Source: Lytechinus pictus
Taxonomy: Eukaryota
Direction of reading: 5' to 3'
DNA length: 64,000 nt
NCBI RefSeq assembly: GCF_037042905.1
Contig: NC_087251.1
Location: 33,854,001 to 33,918,000, forward strand
The position numbers and the translations under genes are program-made. The notes beneath the pieces were generated by a model. The model saw only the letters and a list, made by a program, of their open reading frames with translations. It searched no databases and had not been told where the DNA came from. Positions 8,001-45,987 of the stretch are shown here, one piece after another (within the stretch, counting starts at the first letter, position 1; each line of letters begins with the position of its first letter).

Positions 8001-11000
8001 TATGTTATTTTAATCCAACCAACGGAGAATCACATATAAACTGTATAAGGGAATGATAACAAATCTTGAAAGGAAAAAAATATATAAACAACCAATGCTC
8101 GTGGATTGTATAGAAAAAAAAATTCATATCTAAAAACTCTCAACGGTTGTTGTACAATTTTATACAAATAAACCGGCTAGAGTGTATGTGGCAGGAGTAA
8201 AACGAGAGAGAAGGAACATGGAAAATATGTCAAACTCGAGATGGCTCTATCCCATATTGTATTTTTTTTAAATACCATTAAGCTAATCAACAGTTGGGAC
8301 GTGGAAATCAAAACCATTCAAGAAGAGGTCCTCCAGGTCAATGAATCCAATCAGGCCAATGACATCGAGGTCAATGACCCTGACCATGTTGAGGACAACC
8401 AGGACGATGCCAGGGATGAGGGCATCACATTCAAGGCTCGCTCCTGCACTCCGAGTGACACAGAAGAGATCCCGGAGGATATAAGCAGTTTTTGATTTCC
8501 CCGATCAAGGTTTGCTTAGGGTTGCCTTTTGGGTTTAAAGATTTACACAATTAATGCAAGGTGAAAATCATAGGGTACCACTCCCATCAACACTACAAGG
8601 CAGGAATCATCTGGAACCGCTTCCACCATCAAACCAATACGAGAAAGAGCACTATAAATTGTGAAACAAGGAGAACTTCAGGTAAAGATAACAGTAAAAG
8701 TGTGTCAGCATGGGGGGGGGGGGAGGCCTTTTACATATTCTTTAAAAAATGTTTAAAAGAATCCCAGGCCAAAAAATTGATGACTTCTAGGCCTCCAAGA
8801 GTGGTGGGAATAATGGACTACCATGCACACCACTGTTTATGCAAGGCGGGAATCATAGGGTACCATGCTCACCATTATCAACACAAGGCGGGAATCGTCT
8901 GGAACCGCTTCCACTATCAAACAATTCACGAGAAAGAGCACTATAAATTGTGAAACAAGGAGAACTTCAGGTAAAAATAATATAATAGCGTGGCAGTGTA
9001 GGGGGGGGGGTAAAGGCCTTTTACATATTCTTTAAATAATGTTTAAAAGAATCCCAGGCCAAAAAATTGATGACTTCTAGGCCTCCATGAGTGGTGGGAA
9101 TAATGGACTATCATGCACACCACTGTTTATGCAAGGCGGGAATCATAGTGTACCACGCGCACCACCATCAACATAAGGTGGGAATCATGGGGAACCACGC
9201 CCATCACCGTTACTGCAAGGCGGCATTCATAGGGTGCCACGCCATCCACCATCACTAAGAGGCGGGAATCATCTGGAACCGCTTCCACCATCAAACCATT
9301 CACGAGAAAGAGCACTATAAATTGTGAAACAAGGAGAACTTCAGGTAAAGATAACAATAATAGCGTGGCAGTGTAGGGGGGGGGGGTAAAGGCCTCTTAC
9401 ACATTCTTTAAAAAATATTTAAAAGAATCCAAGGCCAAAAATTGATGACTTCTAGGCCTCCATGAGTGGTGGGAATAATGGACTACCATGCACACCACTG
9501 TTTATGCAAGGCGGGAATCATAGTGTACCACGCGCACCACCATCAACACAAGGTGGGAATCATGGGGAACCACACCCATCACCATTACTGCAAGGCGGCA
9601 TTCATAGGGTGCCACACCATCCACCATCAATAATAGGCGGGAATCATCTGGAACTGCTTCCACCATCAAACCATTCACAAGAAAGAGCACTATAAATTGT
9701 GAAACAAGGAGAACTTCAGTTAAAGATAACAATAATAGCATGGCAGTGTGGGGGGGGGGGGTAAAGGCCTTTTACATATTCTTTAAATAATGTTTAAAAG
9801 AATCCCAGGCCAAAAAATTGATGACTTCTAGGCCTCCATGAGTGGTGGGAATAATGGCTTATCATGCACACCACTGTTTATGCAAGGCGGGAATCATAGG
9901 GTGCCACGCGCACCACCATCAACACAAGGTGGGAATCATGGGGAACCACACCAATCGCATTTAATGCAAGGCGGTAATCATAGGGTGCCACGCCAACCAC
10001 CATCACTACAAGGCGGGAATCATTTGGTACCTCCCTCACCATCAAACCAATTCATGAGAAAGAGCACCATAAATTGTGAAACAAGGAGAACTGGAGGTAA
10101 AAATAACGATAATAGTGTGGCAGCATGTGGGGGTGGGGGGGGGGGGGGTAAAGGCTTTTACCAATCCTTAAAAAATAAGAATCAGGCCATAAAAATTGAT
10201 GACTTCAAGGCCTCCGTGAATTATTCTTTTCTCCAAATACGATATCTCCTGACATAAATTAACATGAAATTAATTTATCAACAAGACTTGCCCTCTAATT
10301 TTCCTTCATATTCTATTGGCTTTAACAGAGGAAGAGATGCTCCAACAAGAGCTACACCCTCCATGCCCTCCTGCAAGATTCCACCATTGCCTTCTCTACA
10401 AGCGTGCCCATCTTACCAATGGTTGGGACGTTGTATTAAAAAATACCCGAGAGGATGTCCTCCATGACCCTGACCATATTGAGAACAACCAGGACGATAA
10501 TAGGAATGCAGGCGTCACTTTCAAGCCTCCCTTCAGCACTCCGATGACAAGAAAGAGATTCCAGAGGATATAAGCGCTTATAGATTTCCACGATCAAGAT
10601 TTGCTTAGGATTTCATAGGTCATCAGACTTTACAGAAGACCAACTTTTGCTTCCATTACTTCTAAAGGCAGATCAACCTAAATAGTTGAAGACATTTTTC
10701 TTGTCAATAGAATATAAATGGCAAGTTGAGTTCCATTCAATTTGAGCAGGTCTATGGCAAAAGATCATGGGCGAACATCACCTGAACTTTCACCTCAGAT
10801 TGGTGCCATCCTGCTGTATCAATTGTTTCTTGTTTTTACATTTCATGTCCTTTCTGTTTCTTAGTGTTTGTTACATTCAATTCATCTATATTTGTATGTT
10901 CTTTGTTTATATTATTTTAATCCAGTCATTTGGATGCAATAGAGAGGGCATAACAAATTTTGAAAGGAAACAATAATGTACATAAAAATTATTTCTGTTT

Positions 11001-26000: not shown

Positions 26001-29000
26001 TGTAATAACTGACATAAAACATGTTACATAGCAGCCCAGTGATTGAAAATTGGGCTCCCTGTGAATAAGAGAGTACATTCACTTCAACCCGAAAAATACT
26101 ATTTTCTGGGAACTATTTGCACAAACATTTCATTCACAAATAGAAAACAGTCTTTTAATATTGCTGGTAGTATACTGAAATTCATATTTTTCCTTTGCAT
26201 AATGTCCATAGAATTTATCATTTTAAGGGAATTATAATTTAGAGCATGAAGTAAAGTGCATCATTCAAGTTTAATTATGAAGGAGGAGAAAAGGAAAAGG
26301 AGAAGATGGGAAGAAGAAGATGATGACGATGATGAAGAAAAGGATAATAAACATGAGAAACAAAGGAAGATTGAGGAAGAGAAAGAGGAGAATGGGGGAG
26401 AGGGAGAAAACAAAAACCAAGAAGAAGGGGGAAGAGGAGCAGAAATGAATAAATGAATATGTTTAATCAAATGAATGTGTTTAAAAATTGAATATGTTTA
26501 ATCCAGTTATCTGGGACTACTTTCTTTTAATGGAAACTGTGTTCAGTAGTCTCCATTCTCAGGCTGATAATTTACAAACATTTTGACTGTAACCAAGTAA
26601 TCTTACCTAGAAAAAAATGAATCCGGAATCCAAGTCAAGGTCTGTCGAGATGTAGAGAACCTGTCAAAGACATAAAGAGATTCGATTCTATGGCATTTAT
26701 TTCTACAGATCACAACATTTAACATTTACACACAAAAAATGGAAACTAGTCACCAAACTTTTGGGAGATGAAAGAAATTACCTTAATTGCTGAAGCTGGT
26801 GATTTTAAAAGCTTGTGTTATTAAAATCCCTTTTCATGGAAATGTGATATCCTTTTGCAATTGTATGCTAAAATCACATATGCTGACACAAAACCTTTGT
26901 CTGCTGAAATAAGAATGGTAATACTTGGAATATTTTTTTTTTTTTTTCTCTTGATCTAAAGGATAAATGCTTGATTTTTTCTGGCAGTCAGTTTATGATG
27001 ACAGTTTTTCATCATACATGTATGCATTGGGGCAAAACGAAATTGATTTCTTTCAATTATTATTTTTTTTCTTTTCAAGAATAGAGGGCCTTACAACTTA
27101 TGCCAAGTAAAATAAAAGTTTTTCAGCATTCTGCTGAATACAAAAATAATCATCAAGATTATAATGAAAGACAAATCATAAACAAATTTTTAAAATCATT
27201 TTTAGAGTAATGTGCCTGACATTCAACATGGCAAACTTATTACTCAAGCCAGCACAGTCAATCACCAAAAACACACACAAAACATACTGTTATATACACG
27301 GGCACTATCACTCACCACATTAAAGTCCCAATTTCAACTCAAAAGTCCCCTTTAAAAAGTAAATTAAAATACAGATTCTGCGCCATATTTCCAGAGCACA
27401 CGGCAGCTTAGCTCAAATTTTAAAAGCAGGGTTATCGAAAAATGTGCTAAAAATTAAGAAATCTGTGGTTTTGTTCTAAGTTCACAATCTTTTTGGCAAA
27501 TTTAGGATCGTATCTTCAATCAAAAAAGAAAGAAACTGAAAAAATCTACATTGAATTTGCACAGAAATAAAGTTGACGACATGCTAGCTGCAGGCTTTCA
27601 TTCGACATGGGGTCCGAGTGTGATGTGAATGGCCGCTGCAACTTCTGGGTTGCATACATGTATATCACATGCGGTGTGGCGCAATTCAGCGGCGCTCGCA
27701 TGTTTTGACTTTTGAACAAGCGACGCGCTATGTCAAATGAAGGGCGGGGGCTGTCGCATCGTGGTTGCAAAACATGATTTTATGAAATATTAAGATAGGT
27801 GAAAATAAACATTGCAATTAAAATAGACAAATATATTCAACATTGATGCGAATTTCATTTTGTGAAAAGACATTTTAGACTTAACAAAAAATATTGGCTT
27901 TGCAGAAAAGCTAATAAAATATAGCATGCCAAATTGTGGGCAGGTTATCATGAATAATTTTAGGATTTTGCATAGACTGATCTATACAGAGAATGTTACC
28001 AATTTAGGCAATAAATTTAGTTTAAAAGTAACGTTTTAATCACCCAAGGGTTCATTACATGCCGCCGCGCACAGAAAATTCAAGCCATAGAATTAGAAGT
28101 CGTGTGTTGTGGACCCAAGAAGTGAGATCCCAGCACGCGCGACCCACTAGTTAGAAATCCACTGCCAAACGCGGTTCGTGGTGCGAGGTTAGTATACTAA
28201 TACTAACCTCGCAATACGTGTGAGTGCGTTTTAATAGCCCCCGGAAAAAATGGATTGTCTGGCGGCAAGACAATAAATTAATTATTTTCAGGGGCTACTT
28301 TTAACATACTGTAGCGTAATGAGTTATACCTTTAAGATGTATTTCATAGTTTAATCGTAGAGGGCGATATTTTAGTTGTGATATGCTTTGCGATTATTGG
28401 AGAAGTACGTGAGTTCGCTGGGAGCTGCGGTGGCGTACGGTTGTAAGATGTAAGCTCCGAATAAATCAAGTTGAACTGTATACTGAATATCTCCCAAGTT
28501 GCTTCATTTGCATGATTTAGGGTGAGTGAGCGGGTGATTCGGTGTATTTCAGAGGAGCGAGAGAGTGTACCACGTTGCACAATATACTTTTGTGAACGAA
28601 CCTGCCCAAAAAGAGATATAAAAGTGAGGAGAAGCGTGGACCGGGTTCTAGAGACTGCGAGACGGCAGAACGCTACCCCGACAGAGCTCGGTTACGCCAC
28701 ACTGGTGGCCGCGGTGGGATTGAACAACGTGGTATTGGAAGCTTAGACAACTTAGGCGCCTGTATTACAGGGAGCGCCACGTATATCGCCTATGAAGATT
28801 GCCAGGAGAGGCAAGAAGAGAGCGCCCTGGGTGTACGTGTGCGGCGGAGATAGTGCCTACACACGTTGGTGAATAGCGCCCTGGGTGTGTGTGGCGGAGA
28901 TAGTGCCTACACACGTTGGTGAATAGCGCCCTGGGTGTGTGGCGGAGATAGTGCCTACACACGTTGGTGGATAGCGCCCTGAGTGTGTGTGGCGGAGGTA

Positions 29001-31633
29001 GCTCCTACACACGTTGGTGAATAGCGCCCTGGATGTGTGTGGCGGAGATAGTGCCTACACACGTTGGTGAATAGCGCCCTGGGTGTGTGTGGCGGAGATA
29101 GTGCCTACACACGTTGGTGAATAGCGCCCTGGGTGTGTGTGGCGGAGATAGTGCCTACACACGTTGGTGAATAGCGCCCTGGGTGTGTGTGGCGGAGATA
29201 GTGCCTACACCGTTGGTGAATAGCGCTCTGGATGTGTGTGGCGGAGATAGTGCCTACACACGTTGGTGAATAGCGCCCCGTGTGGCGGAGATAGTGCCTA
29301 CACACGTTGGTGAATAGCGCCCTGGGTGTGTGTGGCGGAGATAGTGCCTACACACGTTGGTGAATAGCGCCCTGGGTGTGTGTGGCGGAGATAGTGCCTA
29401 CACACGTTGGTGAATGGCGCCCTGGATGTGTGTGGCGGAGATAGTGCCTACACACGTTGGTGAATAGCGCCCTGGATGTGTGTGGCGGAGATAGTGCCTA
29501 CACACGTTGGTGAATAGCGCCCTGGGTGTGTGTGGCGGAGATAGTGCCTACACACGTTGGTGAATGGCGCCTTGGGTATTTGTGGCGGAGATAGCGCCTA
29601 CACACGTTGGTGAATGGCGCCTTGGGTGTGTGTGGCGGAGATATATAGCGCCTAAATACACGTTGGTGAATGGAGCCTTGGGTGTGTGTGGCGGAGATAG
29701 CGCCTATACACGTGGGTGAATAGCGCCTATTGAGTCGGTGTGTAGACGACAGCGTGGATAGCGCCTATACATGTAAATGTATAGCGCCTACGACGTGTGG
29801 CTATGAAGAATGGATCTGAAATTCCTTGCAGGATAAGTGCAGCGTGGAGATGGGGATCTCTGAACGTCGAAGAGAAGTACTTGTTGGATATGCAGATACT
29901 AGCAACGAGGGAACTGGAGCTGTCCTATGTTGGGAAGGAGCAAGTCATATCCTATGCTAGTGGGGTACTGCATTCAGAAAGCAGAGAAAAAAACTACTAT
30001 GGGGCTCAAAAGGAGTCATGGGCCATGGTAGTATTTCGGAGCTGCAACAGAACTTCTATGGGCGGAGATCAGGACGGATCATCGGGCACTTGGTTGGATC
30101 TTTGCAGAGGCAAGGGTGGTTGCCGTGGAACTTGACATCAGCAATGAGCAGATACCAACAGAAAGAACCTTCGATCAGGTAGATCTTGGAAGCAGAGCAT
30201 CAGTCAGTCGACCGGCCCGATTGGTCAACGGTGGCTTCAAAGTCTAGTGTGGAGAAGTCCTATTGGAGGATGCACAGCTGGAGATGAAGCAAGACATACT
30301 CTACAGGAAGTAGGAGTGTGACCAAGGTCGGAATGTAACCTGGCATGTGATGTTGTTCTTCAGATAGATAGTTCGAAGGAATTGCGTTGGATGCACATCC
30401 GCTGATTGTTACGACAGGGTAACGCCTTGGCCTCCAAAGAAGTCTTTATAGAGAGAGATCGAGATGATGAAAAGTAGTTCTAGACATGCGCCTTGAAGAA
30501 ACCCCCCAAGAAGGAATCGTCTAGCACTATAATAGAAATCCGCAGAATAGATATTGGACAGAACTTTCGCTATATATTACTTTGTGCCAGAAACAGTCAG
30601 ACTCTGACGCATTTGAAATTTGTATTCAACATGTTGTTTTATGCCTTGATGTATTCTTTATATTTTTTGCTTCCATGTTTCCTTTTCCTATTTTCTAACC
30701 TTTCTTATGTAATTCTCTTGACATTTTCCTGATCTCAATGCTACTCTGTTTGCTCTTTCTATCTATTTCTGTATATAGATTGTTTTGGTTGTTAATGTAA
30801 GAACGGTACTTTATGTACTATGCCAATGTATATACCTGTATACTTTTAACGATGTTTTAATGTTTTATTTTCTTCTTTGGAAGAGCGAGATAACATTTAA
30901 AGAAATTTATTGTTATGCTTTGTTGTTAATATACCTGGTCCGAGGACAGCCCAGACTTGGGGAGGGGCTGTGTAGCGTAATGAGTTATACCTTTAAGATG
31001 TATTTCATAGTTTAATCGTAGAGGGCGATATTTTAGTTGTGATATGCTTTGCGATTATTGGAGAAGTACGTGAGTTCGCTGGGAGCTGCGGTGGCGTACG
31101 GTTGTAAGATGTAAGCTCCGAATAAATCAAGTTGAACTGTATACTGAATATCTCCCAAGTTGCTTCATTTGCATGATTTAGGAAATTAGGGTGAGTGAGC
31201 GGGTGATTCGGTGTATTTCAGAGGAGCGAGAGAGTGTACCACGTTGCACAATATACTTTTGTGAACGAACCTGCCCAAAAAGAGATATAAAAGTGAGAAG
31301 CGTGGACCGGGTTCTAGAGACTGCGAGACGGCAGAACGCTACCCCGACAGAGCTCGGTTACGCCACAATACTATTGCCTAAAAATCGTGAACATTCTCTG
31401 TAAGAGTCTATGCAACATCCTAAAATTATTCATGATAACCTGCCCAAAATTTTGCATGTTAATTGGCCCACACTGACATTCACTTCACTTGTGTTGGGAT
31501 TTTATTTAACTTCAACTTAAACTTAACGACATTTATACATACATGTGGGACCGAAGCAAAAATAAGGAGATACTCACCGCGTACCACCAACATTCAATTT
31601 GATGAGATCACCCGAACCCAACATCCCATTCAT
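4705..31633 (-). CDS. KCTD3: KCTD3/SHKBP1-family BTB/POZ + WD40 protein, complete 14-exon CDS (~697 aa): join of 31578-31633, 26607-26660, 25926-25971, 25167-25299, 24504-24584, 23325-23489, 22263-22547, 19668-19871, 16379-16495, 14153-14323, 7540-7695, 6120-6216, 5387-5577, 4705-5042
   Basis: All introns are GT-AG, phases are consistent, and the total of 2094 nt is divisible by 3. Recognisable family peptides: [145 protein letters not shown]. Probably a co-ortholog of vertebrate KCTD3 and SHKBP1. Confidence 0.95.
5387..5577 (-). CDS. KCTD3: KCTD3-like exon 13 ([48 protein letters not shown]...)
   Basis: ORF 5379..5618; TAG acceptor, GTAAGT donor. Confidence 0.95.
6120..6216 (-). CDS. KCTD3: KCTD3-like exon 12 ([33 protein letters not shown])
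   Basis: Manual translation; AAG acceptor, GTAAGA donor. Confidence 0.93.
6398..7056. mobile_element. MITE with ~30-bp TIRs and TA TSD
   Basis: TA|TCGTCGGCGGTCATCCGAACCGTCGTATCA ... TGATACGACGGTTCGGATGAACGCCGACGA|TA. Confidence 0.85.
7540..7695 (-). CDS. KCTD3: KCTD3-like exon 11 ([38 protein letters not shown]...AGNDI)
   Basis: Manual translation; conserved [19 protein letters not shown]. Confidence 0.95.
8560..10220 (+). repeat. Higher-order tandem repeat: ~375-bp units built partly from 42-bp subunits
   Basis: GAAAGAGCACTATAAATTGTGAAACAAGGAGAACT recurs at ~8643, 8932, 9306, 9681 and 10057; subunit CAAGGCGGGAATCATAGGGTGCCACG... Confidence 0.9.
14153..14323 (-). CDS. KCTD3: KCTD3-like exon 10 ([16 protein letters not shown]...SEKYLVS)
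   Basis: ORF 14127..14321; TAG acceptor, GTAAGT donor. Confidence 0.95.
15550..16131. mobile_element. MITE with ~38-bp TIRs and a poly-C end
   Basis: GGGCCACTTCCATTGACGAGTGGATACCATGCGCGACC / GGTCGCGCATGGTATCCACTCGTCAATGTAAGTGGCCC; internal ACCCTAAACAAGTA-like repeats. Confidence 0.85.
16379..16495 (-). CDS. KCTD3: KCTD3-like exon 9 ([39 protein letters not shown])
   Basis: ORF 16326..16598; AAG acceptor, GTAAGT donor. Confidence 0.95.
16762..17589. mobile_element. CpG-rich non-autonomous element with imperfect ~35-bp TIRs
   Basis: AGCTTTCTATCGCCAGACCGAACGTCAAGCTACTAC / GTAGTAGCTAACGTTCGGTGTGCGGGTAGAAAGCT. Confidence 0.7.
17790..18930. mobile_element. Foldback-like element with long imperfect arms around an internal degenerate tandem array; right arm interrupted by a SINE
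   Basis: 17942-17999 pairs with 18448-18508; 17862-17897 with 18550-18583; ~17811-17856 with ~18851-18893. Confidence 0.65.
18592..18845 (+). mobile_element. tRNA-derived SINE
   Basis: A box TGGTCCAGTGG and B box GAGTTCAAATCC in a tRNA-like head (18593-18666) with a degenerate anticodon arm. Confidence 0.65.
19355..19630 (+). mobile_element. Degenerate tRNA-derived SINE with L2-like tail
   Basis: GGGTCGTGGGATCAAACCCCGGCC B-box-like motif; 3' GCGCTATAAAAGA...ATCATTATTA tail. Confidence 0.55.
19668..19871 (-). CDS. KCTD3: KCTD3-like exon 8 ([31 protein letters not shown]...GSIYYI)
   Basis: ORF 19474..19887; TAG acceptor, GTGAG donor. Confidence 0.95.
20530..21085. repeat. Two-copy ~295-bp direct duplication
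   Basis: ATGCT.TTTAGCCTTTATTCAGATATCACATT...AATCCAAACATAAAG at ~20531 and ~20825. Confidence 0.85.
21520..21720 (-). mobile_element. 3' fragment of an L1/Tx1-clade non-LTR retrotransposon ORF2
   Basis: [21 protein letters not shown]...[22 protein letters not shown] resembles the KY.IY...IE...A....KL..H..KW C-terminus of invertebrate L1/Tx1 ORF2. Confidence 0.6.
22263..22547 (-). CDS. KCTD3: KCTD3-like exon 7 ([34 protein letters not shown]...)
   Basis: ORF 22225..22575; motif GHHNWI..AYAHF..CYRIKES. Confidence 0.95.
23325..23489 (-). CDS. KCTD3: KCTD3-like exon 6, poorly conserved linker ([54 protein letters not shown])
   Basis: Open frame, symmetrical phase 1-1, CAG acceptor and GTAAGG donor. 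The acceptor position is less certain. Confidence 0.7.
23790..24090 (-). mobile_element. 3' end of an L2/CR1-group LINE
   Basis: Minus strand [40 protein letters not shown] (typical ORF2 C-terminus), then GCGCTATATAAG and (ATT)n tail. Confidence 0.85.
24288..24497. repeat. (CAT/CAC)n microsatellite adjacent to the exon 5 donor
   Basis: Read directly; explains the poly-D/H/M/S ORFs. Confidence 0.97.
24504..24584 (-). CDS. KCTD3: KCTD3-like exon 5 ([27 protein letters not shown])
   Basis: Matches the KCTD3 post-BTB motif; CAG acceptor, GTAAGT donor. Confidence 0.92.
25167..25299 (-). CDS. KCTD3: KCTD3-like exon 4 ([44 protein letters not shown])
   Basis: BTB/T1 motifs FIDRDP, ILNYLR and EAEFYG; splice sites present. 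Confidence 0.95.
25926..25971 (-). CDS. KCTD3: KCTD3-like exon 3 ([15 protein letters not shown])
   Basis: TAG acceptor, GTAAG donor, BTB sequence. Confidence 0.93.
26607..26660 (-). CDS. KCTD3: KCTD3-like exon 2 ([17 protein letters not shown])
   Basis: CAG acceptor, GTAAGA donor, BTB sequence. Confidence 0.93.
   Translation of the reverse strand, partial: VLYISTDLDLDSGFIFF
28703..28720 (+). promoter_or_regulatory. Primer binding site complementary to a tRNA-Leu 3' end
   Basis: TGGTGGCCGCGGTGGGAT lies 1 nt after the 5' LTR. The complement of the metazoan tRNA-Leu(AAG/TAG) 3' end, from memory, is TGGTGGCAGCGGTGGGAT (1 mismatch). Confidence 0.8.
28823..29790 (+). repeat. Tandem array of ~18 copies of a 50-bp unit inside the LTR element
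   Basis: Unit GGCGGAGATAGTGCCTACACACGTTGGTGAATAGCGCCCTGGGTGTGTGT; degenerates toward the 3' end. Confidence 0.97.
29870..30135 (+). pseudogene. Frameshifted Gypsy pol RNase H remnant
   Basis: Read across frames: [15 protein letters not shown] (cf. DAS..G.GAVL), [23 protein letters not shown] (cf. VI.YASR.L...EKNY....KE.LA.V), [10 protein letters not shown] (cf. TDH.AL.WL). Confidence 0.8.
30959..30967 (+). promoter_or_regulatory. Polypurine tract
   Basis: GGGGAGGGG just upstream of the 3' LTR. Confidence 0.75.
31578..31633 (-). CDS. KCTD3: KCTD3-like coding exon 1 ([19 protein letters not shown])
   Basis: GCAGCCATG start context, BTB LNVGG motif, GTGAGT donor. Confidence 0.9.
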
Positions 31634-31834
31634 GGCTGCTCGATCTGGCCCGGGAATGTCGAAGTTTCGTCCCGAATTGCCTTTTATCTTAAACTTATTT
31701 TTGTTTTGTACACTAATTACGTCAGTTTCTAATGTGATTCATAATGACAAATTAAAACAACACTTGTCTTGTTTGGGCGTGAATCACTAACGTAGATGGC
31801 AGCAATCAGCTAGCAGAGTTGACTGCAGGAACAA

Positions 31835-32151
31835 CTGGGGCCGATTGCACGAAAGGGTCTTTCCAAGGACCGTCTTTCGTGTCGCCCATCTTTTATGATG
31901 CGCTGTAAGCGGGGTGTTTCTGAAATTTATGATAAACAAATAAAATTCGTAAGCTAGCTTTTAAATCAAATTTTATACAATTTCATGAGATATCACATCA
32001 TTTTATAAGAAAATATTTTTGTTTATTCAACGGACAAATAAAATATATTTGCAGATAATCTATTTGAAATGCGTTTCACATGGCGTATCATAAAAGATGG
32101 GCGACACGAAAGACGGTCCTTGCAAAGACCCTTTCGTGCAATCGGCCCCTG
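31835..32151. mobile_element. MITE with ~70-bp TIRs, ~200 bp upstream of the KCTD3 ATG
   Basis: CTGGGGCCGATTGCACGAAAGGGTCTTT...CCCATCTTTTATGAT vs its reverse complement at ~32083-32151. Confidence 0.88.
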
Positions 32152-32787
32152 TATTTTTCCAGTAGATGCGGTATAAAGGTATAAAGAGTTCAGAGTAGAG
32201 TAGTTCAACTCTGGCAAAGTTGTGAAAAGTTGCGTTATAAATGTAAAAAACAACAACAAAAGAAAATGGATAACAAATGTTTTTTTTTTTAATGAGAGGT
32301 CCATAGAGGTCCGACATGCCGTAGATAGCCCCTTAAGGAGCAAAATTTCTATTTGAAAAAATAGCTGCAAGTGAGCAAAAATGAAATTTTTTTAAATTCA
32401 AATATAGTTTGTGATAGATTTTTACATAATCAAATAATATTCCGAAACTCGTATCTCAGTCCCTTTTCCTTTTCTTTCCGTTTTTCCTGAAACTTTGTGG
32501 ATGTCCTTGGGCCTTGCTGGCCCATCTGTAGGCCATTGGTGATAGAATAAGTTGATTGATACTAAACCGAATGTGTATAGATTCACGTGAAAATAGATAA
32601 AATTGTAAATGGGCTAATTGGTGATAAGATCAAAATGGTTAGTAGATGAACTGGTTGTAAATGATAATTATATAGGATTAGAATGAGAACCTAGAAGACA
32701 AAATGGAGTAGTCAAATGCAATTTTCCATGCTGATTCTTCTCAATGACTGCTAAGAAATCAGGTATCGATTGATTTGGTATAATCAA

Positions 32788-35025: not shown

Positions 35026-36700
35026 TCGGTTCGGTGTAAAAATGGCAGAGGTAAAAATGGCAAAGGTAAAAATGGCAGAGGTAAAAATGGCAAAGGTAAA
35101 AATGGCAAAGATAAAAATGGCAGAGGTAGAAATGGCAGAGGTAAAAATGGCAGAGGCAAAAATGGCAGAGGTAAAAATGGCAGAGGTAAAAATGGCAAAG
35201 GTAAAAATGGAAGAGGAAGAAATAGGAGCGGTAATAATGACAGAGGTAAAAATGGCTGAGGTAAAAATGACAACACTTGAGTTGGTATTTCTTATTTTTT
35301 TCCTGGACTTACATGCACGACCTTCTCATGTCAAATCGCTCTTCTAATATTTAAATTTGAAGAACACTTTGGATCCCAAATATTGTACTGAATTCATTAC
35401 AGGGGAAATTTACACTGACATAGAGTATATTAAAGTGATATTGGTGAGGGTTTTAGGGAATCAATCAAAGATTTAAAAAGCTACTAAAATTTTACATGTT
35501 AATGGGGACGTCATATGCGAGCAGTTTTCCCCATAATTATATGGTGTAATAAAAGAAATATCAATGAAATGTCATTAAAAAAAAAAAATGGTTTTAATTG
35601 TACCTTAAGTATATTAACATACAAATAATTTCACATCCACTCCTAAAAGATTTTTTTTAGCAATCATGAACCACTGATTAAAAAATTGAAAAGTAGACAT
35701 TTTGGTGCACAAAATACGGGGTAGTTACTAATATATGACGTCACAGATCAAAAACTCAAACTTCTAATAACTTTTTAATCTTTGATGGGTTTTCCGCAAA
35801 CCTTCACCAATATATTTTTTCTGCTATTTTTACAGTAAACCATTCGACAGGATGAATTTCCCCTTTGAAACAGGTCTATAGAATGGTACCTAAGAAACAC
35901 CCATGAACTTAAATCCCTGATTCCCTACACATTTCAAAATTCATGCGGTACCCGTTACCATAGAAACTAGTTAAAGAACCTGATATCCACTTGGACTAGC
36001 TGCAATGAGGTATTACTCTGAAAAATGAACACTAGTTGCTATTATTTTATCATTTACATTAAACTATATACGTATCATATGAATATCTATTCGGATTCAT
36101 TATGATGTTGAAATATGAAAAATTACTTTTATTACAGAACGTTTTGTTAGTTGTCTGTTATCCAAGTTATGCAAGTGGTTCAAAGAAATCCCGAACTCGT
36201 CTATTTCAGTGTGTTAATGGTAGCGCACATTGGTGTTTACATTACAATTCGTTTTTTTTTTCTGTTACATTACAATTCGTTTGATATGTATGTGATGAAG
36301 TGCTGTTCTACTATACGAAATGGCCAAGATAAATCCTTTCATCACTCACTAACTGAAATCATTTTGGCATGAAAATGTTTGAGTTTAATCATATCAACGA
36401 TAAAGTGTAGACCTAAAATGATGAAAAAAAATCCAAATAATATCTCAACATAATACTCATTTTGTCGATAGGAGTCCATTCAAGGTCAATTATTACTGAT
36501 ATTAACTGGAAAGGCTATATATTTTCCTTGCTGATCTAGCATGTCATGATCTTTACCTCTGTAATTTTTACCTCTGCCCTTATTACCTCTGCCATTTTTA
36601 CCTCTGCCATTTTTACCTTTGCCATTGTTACCTCTGCCATTTTACCTCTGCCATTTTTACCTCTGCCATTTTTACCTCTGCCATTTTTACCCGGCACCGA
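35026..36700. mobile_element. Foldback element whose TIRs are arrays of a 15-bp unit (GGTAAAAATGGCAGA)
   Basis: ~16 units at 35035-35270, inverted ~10 units at 36548-36690; termini TCGGTTCGGTGTAAA / TTTACCCGGCACCGA. Confidence 0.88.
35400..35866. mobile_element. Non-autonomous TIR element nested inside the foldback element
   Basis: AGGGGAAATTTACACTG...ATTGGTGAGGGTTT...ATCAAAGATT...GACGTCATAT mirrored by ATATGACGTC...AATCTTTGAT...AAACCTTCACCAAT...CAGGATGAATTTCCCCTTT. Confidence 0.7.
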
Positions 36701-45008: not shown

Positions 45009-45987
45009 TTGTCTCACCTGCATAGCAGAGTGAGACTATAGGCGCCGCTTTTCCGACGGCGACGGCGACGGCGGCGGCGGCGGCGACGGCGGCGGCGGCG
45101 TCAACACCAAATCTTAACCTGAGGTTAAGTTTTTGAAATGACAGCATAACTTAGAAAGTATATGGACCTAGTTCATGAAACTTGGCCATAAGGTTAATCA
45201 AGTATTACTGAACATCCTGCCTGAGTTTCATGTCACATGACCAAGGTCAAAGGTCATTTAGGGTCAATGAACTTAGACCATGTTGGGGGAATCAACATCA
45301 AAATCTTAACCTAAGGTTAAGTTTTTGAAATGTCATCATAACTTAGAAAATATATGGACCTAGTTCATGAAACTTATACATAAGGTTAATAAAGTATCAC
45401 TGAACATCCTGCATGAGTTTCACATCACATGACCAAGGTCAAAGGTCATTTAGGGTCAATGAACTTTGGCCGAATTGGGGGTATCTGTTGAATTACCATC
45501 ATAACTTTGAAAGTTTATGGATCTGATTCATGAAACTTGGACATAATAGTAATCAAGTATTACTGAACATCCTGTGCAAGTTTCAGGTCACATGATCAAG
45601 GTCAAAGGTCATTTAGGGTCAATGAACTTTGGCCAAATTGGGGTATTTGTTGAATTACAGCCATAAATTTGAAAGTGTGTTGGTCTAGTTCATAAAACTT
45701 GGACATAATAGTAATCAAGTATCACTGAACATCCTGTGCGAGTTTCAGGTCACATGATCAAGGTCAAAGGTCATGTAAGGTCAAAGAACTTTGGCCACGT
45801 TGGGGGTATTTGTTGAATTGCCATCATATCTCTATAAGTGTATTGGTCTAGTTCATAAAACGTGGAAATAAGAGTAACCAAGTATCACTGAACATCTTGT
45901 GCGAGTTATAGTAGTTTTCAAAATCAGCACTGCTGCTATATTGAATCGCGTGATGCAGGTAAGACGGCCAGAGGCATTCCACTTGTT
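45009..45987 (+). mobile_element. Helentron-associated (HINE-type) non-autonomous element, well-preserved copy
   Basis: Subterminal IR GTCTCACCTGCAT (45011) / ATGCAGGTAAGAC (45953); (GGC/GAC)n microsatellite 45056-45100; ~5 tandem ~163-bp cores; T-rich flanks. Confidence 0.8.

What the first reader, a model, noticed from the sequence alone, without database searches (positions are those of the whole stretch)
28310..31367. Young non-coding Gypsy-type LTR element with a long array of hairpin-forming 50-mers where gag/pol would be
Seen: TG..CA LTRs that differ, by eye, only by an 8-bp and a 3-bp indel; a perfect ATAC TSD; an 18-nt tRNA-Leu-type PBS; and a PPT. The only coding trace is a heavily frameshifted RNase H relic. 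Near-identical LTRs with a long-dead pol imply the element moved recently after losing coding capacity, so it would be a trans-mobilised non-autonomous (TRIM/LARD-like) lineage. The gag/pol position is occupied by ~18 x 50-bp repeats starting ~100 bp after the PBS. Inference: the array could be an amplified packaging/dimerisation signal that lets the element compete for a helper's Gag.
Basis: partly seen in the sequence, partly recalled or inferred. Interest (0 to 1): 0.75.

Follow-up and report, generated by a model that had tools for sequence, protein, structure and literature searches.

The report
Helper-dependent sea urchin LTR retrotransposon
This is a recently inserted copy of a jumping-gene family that lost its own genes long ago yet still moves, probably by borrowing enzymes from a relative; it carries a run of eighteen 50-letter repeats whose proposed role as a multiplied packaging signal remains unproven.

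Summary
Real. A 3,058-bp LTR element (0 substitutions in 389 LTR sites, 4-bp TSD, tRNA-type PBS, PPT) lies antisense in intron 1 of a KCTD3-like gene, probably in Lytechinus. It has no gag, protease, RT or integrase: only an 18 x 50-bp leader array and a multiply frameshifted RNase H relic. Laid public runs support a long-lived non-autonomous family. Another sample lacks the insertion here, and LTR ends run into other flanks. A related organism (about 5% diverged at the flank) holds several relic pieces that share most frame breaks, and links LTR to array in one contig. A 4.26-kb relative, 88% alike in one patch, is a candidate helper; its coding state was not seen. No genome was available, so full-length copies were not counted. 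The packaging-signal idea is unsupported: units fold little or no better than shuffles (z -0.5 to -1.8), loops are not self-complementary, and variants show no pairing bias (p 0.31). Still, the array persists in three organisms although reverse transcription tends to delete direct repeats. Non-autonomous LTR families with internal arrays are known in sugar beet; I found none described in sea urchins. The scan had not noted this family before.

The parts
28306..28309 (+). Left target-site duplication (ATAC, 4 bp)
28310..28701 (+). 5' LTR, 392 nt, TG...CA; AATAAA at 28460, TATAAAA at 28617
28703..28720 (+). Primer-binding site, complement of a tRNA 3' end; Leu by analogy to ta-TRIM
28721..28820 (+). 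Leader with degenerate copies of the array core motif (28755, 28773, 28785, 28798)
28821..29790 (+). Tandem array: 18.1 x 50 bp (28821-29727) plus decayed half-units to about 29790; each 50-mer has two half-units sharing TAG(C/T)GCC; 7 of 18 units identical; edge units most diverged
29889..30310 (+). RNase H relic and following linker, broken by at least five frame changes between motifs and by stops in all frames
   Evidence: motif labels recalled
30531..30958 (+). T-rich non-coding 3' region (43% T)
30959..30967 (+). Polypurine tract, 3 nt before the 3' LTR
30971..31367 (+). 3' LTR, 397 nt; carries an 8-nt microduplication not seen in most other copies
31368..31371 (+). Right target-site duplication (ATAC)
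27922..31461 (.). Host MITE-like element (inverted arms 27922-28013 and 31372-31461, 87% alike) inside which the LTR element sits
26661..31577 (-). Intron 1 of a KCTD3/SHKBP1-like BTB gene (gene name recalled); the element is antisense, 206 nt from the exon 1 donor

Best explanation
A young copy of an old non-autonomous Ty3/Gypsy-derived LTR family of sea urchins. SHOWN: all cis signals (LTRs, PBS, PPT, inverted ends) are intact; gag, protease, RT and integrase are gone; the RNase H relic was already broken before organisms A and C split; this copy inserted recently and is absent from another sample. INFERRED: the family is transcribed from its LTR, packaged by Gag of a longer relative, primed by a tRNA (probably Leu), reverse transcribed, and integrated with a 4-bp duplication by the helper's integrase. 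The array grew from a short motif repeated in the 5' leader and is a family trait carried in the RNA. Its most likely role (about 0.45 among array roles) is a tolerated, variable-length structured spacer, kept by a balance of DNA-level expansion and loss during reverse transcription. A specific signal (packaging or enhancer) is listed among the rivals.
For: LTR identity 389/389; 95% upper bound on divergence 0.77%. Empty site: X1 record 7 matches 31368-31605 with 0 differences and runs on 100 letters unlike the LTR (orientation checked on record 3). Other flanks at the LTR end: X22 at 31367 and 31375 (3 reads each), X13 at 31370 (3 contigs). X1 record 1 joins the last array unit to the relic over 597 nt with 2 substitutions and 3 gap letters. 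Organism C relic pieces are 4-10% diverged with 0-2 gap letters, against a 4.8% diverged flank. One C contig runs from LTR end to array (depth 58). In organism B the LTR end continues into the same 30 PBS/leader letters. In X13, LTR depth is 32x and median relic depth 3.8x the flank. A Lytechinus pictus gene model starts with 54 aa identical to the relic and goes on as a LINE that is not in this window. A 4,264-nt contig in X1 matches in five patches along relic and 3' region, with 2,992 letters downstream of 30349 where this copy has about 1,020. Leader motifs grade into the array. No structural signal beyond composition.
Against: No genome was held, so no full-length sibling with its own TSD was read. 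The 100 letters beyond the empty site were not printed. Depth is not copy number, and X1 looks like RNA. Pfam support for RNase H is below the curated cut-off, and HMMER on 1.84 billion representatives found 0 hits. No helper ORF was seen. RNA reads in X22 are few (41 laid from 8.7 million records), lie in both directions and show no start or end. Against a merely tolerated array: direct repeats are lost often in retroviral reverse transcription (110-bp repeat, 41% per cycle; PMC3187697 passages), yet array units are found in organisms A, B and C.
Confidence: 0.8

Rival explanations
1. The array is an amplified RNA cis-signal (packaging or dimerisation): about 36 small stem-loops with purine-rich loops bind the helper's Gag multivalently and let this RNA outcompete the helper's own.
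For: It sits where retroviral packaging signals lie, just after the PBS (established knowledge). Both half-units form a 4-bp stem around a loop ending in AUAG, with G-U pairs that work only on the sense strand (array -402.6 vs -300.6 kcal/mol). Two units pair with each other at -32 kcal/mol. The array is kept in three organisms despite repeat loss in reverse transcription. In X1, array-bin depth is 14x the relic, near the 18 units per element. A VNTR sets trans-mobilisation efficiency in gibbon LAVA (PMC4432496 abstract and section 15).
Against: Four units fold no better than shuffled units repeated four times (85 of 300 as good, z -0.53). Best-register test: 12 of 300 (z -1.76). No palindromic hexamer in the unit, and no loop-loop pairing. 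5 of 6 stem transitions keep a pair against 22 of 34 expected, p 0.31; 6 of 11 distinct stem changes break a pair. The sense-strand energy gap is expected from a G+U-rich strand. Five distant elements with the same PBS type have no core motif within 1 kb downstream, or to contig end (0 of 5).
Confidence: 0.22
2. The array acts as DNA: 32 copies of one 7-bp motif form an enhancer or insulator cluster in the 5' leader that drives germline or embryonic transcription of the element, as the ZAM 5' UTR enhancer does. Concerns the array only.
For: TAG(C/T)GCC occurs 32 times on the + strand, all in the array, and once elsewhere in the 64 kb. Relic depth in the RNA-like run X1 is 3.7x that of host exon 1. 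The ZAM 5' UTR carries enhancer sequences (PMC1885662 passages). The clustered Su(Hw) sites of the gypsy leader are recalled, not checked.
Against: No factor identified. Any tandem array gives a repeated motif. Expression in X22 is very low and not strand-biased.
Confidence: 0.2
3. An ordinary old Gypsy insertion that decayed in place; its LTRs look young through gene conversion, and the array is a local minisatellite expansion or a satellite mostly found elsewhere.
For: Two indels with no substitution between LTRs is an odd pattern. No full-length sibling was read. One organism C contig (record 9) leaves the window's sequence left of 29797 for 224 letters.
Against: Empty site in X1. Frame breaks shared with organism C. 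Array linked to LTR in C and to the relic in A. The 3-nt indel is polymorphic in runs of all three organisms, and the 8-nt one is nearly private to this copy. No excess of array over relic depth in the DNA-like runs: 0.5x in X13, 6x in X9.
Confidence: 0.07
4. Copies spread by DNA-level events (segmental duplication, or carriage inside the surrounding MITE) and not by reverse transcription.
For: The element lies between the inverted arms of a MITE-like repeat.
Against: Reads and contigs leave the reference at or within a few bases of the LTR end (31367, 31370, 31375; X13 record 14 at 30971), not at the MITE end. Both LTRs share two letters absent from nearly all other copies (31072, 31098), as expected if one RNA templated both.
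Confidence: 0.05

Closest known systems
Non-autonomous LTR retrotransposons of sugar beet (PMC13570524; passages and section 32 read, supplements not read)
   Same: LTR, PBS and PPT without coding capacity. 10 of 115 families have internal satellite-like arrays; 15 keep decayed pol remnants, 7 of them without gag/protease. Lengths form a continuum between TRIM and LARD.
   Different: Plant, not animal. The passages read do not place the arrays in the leader or give them a function. Leu is not among the six PBS types listed.
ta-TRIM with candidate helper lennie, Echinococcus (PMC4558846; passages read)
   Same: Animal non-autonomous LTR element with TG...CA ends, a Leu-tRNA PBS, a PPT 3 nt before the LTR and mostly 4-bp TSDs. 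A primer printed for its interior begins with the same PBS core, apart from one base.
   Different: About 1 kb, 198-bp LTRs, 8-9-nt PBS; no pol relic and no internal array reported in the passages read.
biv-TRIM of bivalves (PMC6934838; passages read) and PbTRIM of ants (cited there)
   Same: Invertebrate non-autonomous LTR elements.
   Different: Under 1 kb; biv-TRIM has no typical PBS; their tandem forms repeat whole elements, not a leader unit.
SVA/LAVA VNTR composites (PMC4432496; abstract and section 15 read)
   Same: Works-like analogy: a non-autonomous retroelement with a central array of GC-rich 30-50-bp units that affects mobilisation in trans.
   Different: Non-LTR, mobilised by L1; no PBS, no particle packaging. 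Not the same family.
Drosophila ZAM / Idefix / gypsy 5' UTR elements (PMC1885662; passages read)
   Same: Regulatory DNA in the leader of Ty3/Gypsy elements.
   Different: Autonomous elements with tested enhancer or insulator function; nothing tested here.

Membership tests
LTR retrotransposon | Paired LTRs with TG...CA ends and short inverted termini | tested here: met
LTR retrotransposon | 4-6-bp target-site duplication made by integrase | tested here: met
   ATAC on both sides; empty site in X1 ends at the TSD
LTR retrotransposon | PBS complementary to a tRNA 3' end | tested here: met
   A pattern made from its reverse complement plus T-loop letters hit tRNA genes in 4 of 5 viral loci; same PBS core after an LTR-like end in 5 of 5 metagenome loci
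LTR retrotransposon | Primer is tRNA-Leu | tested here: inconclusive
   Core matches the Leu-primed ta-TRIM apart from one base; the viral-contig tRNAs hit were Met(CAT); host tRNA set not available
LTR retrotransposon | Polypurine tract before the 3' LTR | tested here: met
   30959-30967
Ty3/Gypsy superfamily (by descent) | Ty3/Gypsy-type RNase H | tested here: inconclusive
   RT_RNaseH E 0.051, below cut-off; Atlas 23 of 30 hits, 0.91; nothing. Likely but weak; BEL/Pao origin not formally excluded
Ty3/Gypsy superfamily (by descent) | Domain order PR-RT-RH-IN and RT phylogeny | not testable with these tools
   RT, protease and integrase are absent; helper sequence not readable
Non-autonomous LTR family | No intact gag or pol | tested here: met
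   Longest ATG ORF 110 aa; stops in all frames of the relic; no Pfam domain
Non-autonomous LTR family | Several dispersed copies sharing the same lesions | tested here: met
   (other flanks, shared breaks in A and C); P0001. Indirect: no full-length sibling read
Non-autonomous LTR family | Identified autonomous partner | tested here: inconclusive
   4,264-nt relative in X1, coding state unseen; protein searches blank
TRIM (classic, under 1 kb) | Length under 1 kb with 100-250-bp terminal repeats | tested here: not met
   3,058 bp, 392/397-bp LTRs; definitions. It fits only the wider under-4-kb usage
LARD | Length over 4 kb | tested here: not met
   3,058 bp; definition
TR-GAG | Retained gag/protease | tested here: not met
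Retroviral-type packaging/dimerisation signal | Self-complementary kissing loop | tested here: not met
   No palindromic hexamer; loop-loop energies positive
Retroviral-type packaging/dimerisation signal | Structure conserved by covariation | tested here: inconclusive
   Within-array variants only, p 0.31; no homologous arrays readable
Retroviral-type packaging/dimerisation signal | Specific Gag/nucleocapsid binding | not testable with these tools
   needs an experiment

The most novel reading that the evidence does not exclude
A parasite of a retrotransposon that replaced gag-pol with about 36 tandem stem-loops multiplying the helper's Gag-binding signal. It would have held the array against loss in reverse transcription since before two sea urchin lineages split, so that copy number of a packaging signal is the trait under selection. 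My searches turned up no paper on amplified packaging signals in LTR parasites.
Probability: 0.2. Interest if true: 0.75.

Novelty: new member of a known kind. Interest (0 to 1): 0.4.

Why it matters
Few non-autonomous LTR families are described in invertebrates, and I found none with an internal array in sea urchins (only listings and abstract starts seen). This one is datable on both sides: coding loss at least 4-10% of divergence ago, insertion under 0.8%. It is still polymorphic, and it sits 206 nt from a splice donor of a host gene. How such elements are recognised by a helper's Gag is poorly known; the ta-TRIM paper says packaging signals are conserved only as structure and hard to find. 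A natural array of variable length in the leader would make that testable by comparing unit number with copy success. Without that link it is one more family of a known kind.

Tried and rejected
No whole genome held. Pfam on three whole relic frames and three leader frames: no relevant hit. HMMER on 1.84 billion representatives with the 54-aa piece: 0 hits. Word-indexed protein searches: 1 hit of 2 candidates, 0 of 158, 0 of 1. PDB sequence search blank for the relic piece and for a host exon. Array unit as exact pattern: 0 in viral contigs, 0 in metagenome contigs; uninformative for an animal repeat. PBS pattern: five metagenome loci share only 28-30 nt with the element and carry no array after the PBS; L006 is a chance match in a phage gene. 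Rfam: one chance match in the flank, E 3.6. No tRNA gene in the window. No RNA holder listed. Idea that the host MITE arm continues left of the insertion: only 9 nt, score 18 against a shuffled mean of 16.8, rejected as evidence. A single-unit fold z of -2.9 was set aside because the register was chosen; the fair controls give -0.5 and -1.8. Array as a coding repeat: period 50 is not a multiple of 3 and all three sense frames carry stops. CTCF- or REST-like motif in the unit: judged by eye against recalled consensus, poor match, not pursued. Using X1 depth as copy number: rejected, because its intron contig starts at the splice-donor branch (expected 31607 less 2 shared letters = 31605, observed 31605), so X1 is RNA-like. 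Rice Dasheng as a precedent is recalled only; one search listed four papers that I did not open. The scan's own notes held no look-alike.

Full report
1. OBSERVATION. The element spans 28310-31367 (3,058 bp). The LTRs (28310-28701, 30971-31367) align over 389 sites with no substitution and two indels of 8 and 3 nt; the 95% upper bound on their divergence is 0.77%. Ends are TG...CA with 9 of 10 inverted terminal bases. ATAC flanks both sides. An 18-nt PBS starts one base after the 5' LTR; a 9-nt PPT ends three bases before the 3' LTR. The array has period 50, 18.1 copies and 92% matches at 28821-29727; 7 of 18 units are identical and the last units are the most diverged. Each 50-mer is two half-units sharing TAG(C/T)GCC at alternating 23/27-nt spacing. 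Degenerate copies of that core occur in the leader and after the array, so the array probably grew from a leader motif (inference). The longest ATG ORF is 110 aa.

2. CODING RELIC. Whole frames give no Pfam hit. One 36-aa piece hits RT_RNaseH at E 0.051, profile 28-58 of 105, below the curated cut-off. The Atlas puts 23 of 30 feature hits in the RT_RNaseH set at 0.91, and all ten best named hits share that family or clan (the tool warns a third of shuffled proteins get such agreement too). Motifs I recall as RNase H-like occur in the right order but change frame at least five times between 29889 and 30310. HMMER on 1.84 billion representatives found nothing. The Gypsy call is therefore likely but weakly supported.

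3. SETTING. The element lies antisense in intron 1 of a minus-strand BTB-domain gene (BTB_2 E 1.7e-10; exons located; the name KCTD3/SHKBP1 is recalled), 206 nt from the exon 1 donor. It sits between 90-nt inverted arms of a MITE-like repeat. The organism is probably Lytechinus: RefSeq model XP_054748767.1 of L. pictus begins with 54 residues identical to 29803-29964 and continues as a LINE endonuclease/RT protein. That LINE is not in this window (best other tblastn E 0.21). The simplest reading is a sibling copy at another locus with the same broken frame. I could not rule out one long-intron model at this locus. Earlier scan notes also call this genome a sea urchin (not checked further).

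4. FAMILY EVIDENCE. No genome was held. Of 24 listed runs, 19 hold part of the element, from 8 studies: organism A 0.41-0.54 of words (8 runs), B 0.30, C 0.05-0.12, D 0.05. I laid 4 of the 24 on 29635-31830: the last two array units, relic, 3' LTR and right flank. For minus-strand records, record positions count from the right-hand end; this is checked by X1 record 3, whose 11 loose letters lie behind 30506. (a) Empty site: X1 record 7 matches 31605 down to 31368 with no difference, then runs on 100 letters unlike the LTR; those letters were not printed. Its start fits the splice-donor branch exactly, so X1 is RNA-like and its depths are not copy numbers. (b) Other loci: loose ends at 31367 and 31375 in X22 (3 reads each) and at 31370 in X13 (3 contigs); X13 record 14 runs 936 letters beyond the LTR start. 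(c) Shared lesions: X1 record 1 spans 29684-30279 with 2 substitutions and 3 gap letters, joining the last array unit to the relic. In organism C, whose orthologous flank is 4.8% diverged, four relic pieces are 4.1-10.1% diverged with 0-2 gap letters. Record 10 has one 2-letter gap over a span where the window changes frame four times, so at least three changes are shared. Record 12 has no gap over 30094-30315. (d) Array link: one X13 contig joins the LTR end to 29695 (depth 58); X9 has array units and the same 30 PBS/leader letters after the LTR. Against uniformity, X13 record 9 leaves the window's sequence left of 29797, and two X13 contigs have other sequence left of 29932, so differently built subfamilies exist. 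(e) Abundance in X13 (DNA-like): LTR 32x and median relic 3.8x the flank depth; array/relic is 0.5 in X13 and 6 in X9, so no large free satellite of this unit at 85% likeness shows up, although diverged or fragmented units would be missed. (f) Both window LTRs carry letters at 31072 and 31098 that differ from all X22, X1 and X9 data and from nearly all X13 data, as expected if one RNA templated both. The 3-nt indel is polymorphic in three runs; the 8-nt one is absent in 5 of 5 X22 reads and 540 of 549 X1 depth. (g) Candidate helper: X1 record 2, 4,264 nt, depth 10.5, 11.6% diverged at 30152-30349, with four joints linking patches along relic and 3' region, and 2,992 letters downstream of 30349. 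That is room for an integrase this copy lacks, but its sequence was not shown. An earlier scan note on a sea urchin Gypsy clade with a third gene (e1-7881919) is a lead for what such extra length might hold; not tested. (h) Expression: X22 gave 41 laid reads from 8.7 million records, in both directions, none on the flank, with no common start or end. In X1 the relic is 3.7x host exon 1 and the array bin 14x the relic.

5. THE ARRAY. In one register a unit folds into a 13-bp and a 4-bp hairpin (-20.3 kcal/mol, z -2.9), but that register was chosen. Four units fold no better than shuffled units repeated four times (85 of 300), and the best-register test gives 12 of 300. There is no palindromic hexamer and no loop-loop pairing. 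Of 11 distinct stem changes 5 keep a pair; of 6 transitions 5 do, against 22 of 34 expected (p 0.31). Five distant elements with the same PBS core have no array motif downstream. In favour of a role: position just after the PBS; a shared 4-bp stem and AUAG-ended loop in both half-units; and persistence in three organisms, although retroviral RT deletes a 110-bp direct repeat in 41% of single cycles (PMC3187697, passages; extrapolated to a retrotransposon). My weights for the array: tolerated structured spacer 0.45, packaging/dimerisation signal 0.22, DNA enhancer or insulator 0.2, other 0.13.

6. MECHANISM. Shown: intact cis signals, old loss of coding, recent and polymorphic insertion, dispersed relatives. 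Inferred from retrotransposon biology: LTR-driven transcription, packaging by a relative's Gag, tRNA priming, reverse transcription and integration with a 4-bp duplication. Confidence 0.8 for this core.

7. COMPARISON. It works like other non-autonomous LTR elements. In sugar beet, 10 of 115 such families have internal satellite-like arrays and 7 keep pol remnants without gag (PMC13570524, passages and section 32). Its Additional Fig. 4, which I did not read, may show leader arrays and would bear on novelty. ta-TRIM of Echinococcus shares a Leu PBS core, PPT spacing and 4-bp TSD (PMC4558846, passages). By size it is neither a classic TRIM nor a LARD, and it is not a TR-GAG. LAVA's VNTR is a non-LTR analogy for an array that affects trans-mobilisation (PMC4432496, abstract and section 15). 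ZAM's 5' UTR is an analogy for a DNA role (PMC1885662, passages). A review lists minisatellites arising in LTR elements (PMC6947457, passages). biv-TRIM lacks a typical PBS (PMC6934838, passages). Searches showed no description of this family or of an amplified packaging signal; the library lacks most subscription papers and Repbase was not searchable.

8. VERDICT. Observation confirmed; non-autonomous family supported; packaging array unproven. New member of a known kind, interest 0.4; about 0.75 if the array proves to be a multiplied Gag-binding signal (probability about 0.2).

Noticed in passing
window 28670-28676 and L001, L002, L003: The 7-mer CGCTACC lies in the last 80 nt of the LTR in the window and in 3 of 5 distant elements with the same PBS type. 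It could pair with the PBS or with the primer tRNA's 5' end, as a second primer contact.
   Followed up: partly
P0001 (XP_054748767.1): A public L. pictus gene model is a chimera: first 54 aa from this element's relic, the rest a LINE endonuclease/RT fragment. Probably an annotation artefact or a spliced read-through transcript.
   Followed up: partly
window 31367-31375 (loose ends): Flanks of other insertions begin with ATA- or CTAT-like letters, hinting at a preferred target like the ATAC used here; consensus of few mixed reads only.
   Followed up: no
window 27922-28013 and 31372-31461; 31834-32152; 28182-28213: A MITE-like element with 90-nt inverted arms hosts the insertion. A second MITE-like element with about 60-nt arms lies 460 nt further right, upstream of host exon 1. 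A 32-nt near-palindrome lies left of the insertion.
   Followed up: partly
window 28460 and 28617: In the LTR, AATAAA lies upstream of the only TATA-like box, the reverse of the usual order; transcript start and end are unresolved.
   Followed up: no
window 28992-29041: One unit has three clustered changes that break the usual small stem but create an alternative 4-bp stem around a loop again ending in UAG (structure read by eye).
   Followed up: no
L001-L005: Five metagenome contigs hold probable animal LTR element ends with the same LTR-end/PBS arrangement; L003 has a 128-aa coiled-coil-like ORF starting about 165 nt after the PBS with no clear Pfam family.
   Followed up: partly
window 37717-58029 (+): Exons of a two-pore potassium channel gene (Ion_trans_2 hits).
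   Followed up: no
window 8554-10141; 445-918; 45101-45907; 35036-35269; 36552-36691: Other tandem arrays: a 290/375-bp higher-order array built of 42-bp subunits, 163-192-bp repeats in two places, and 15-bp arrays in opposite orientations.
   Followed up: no
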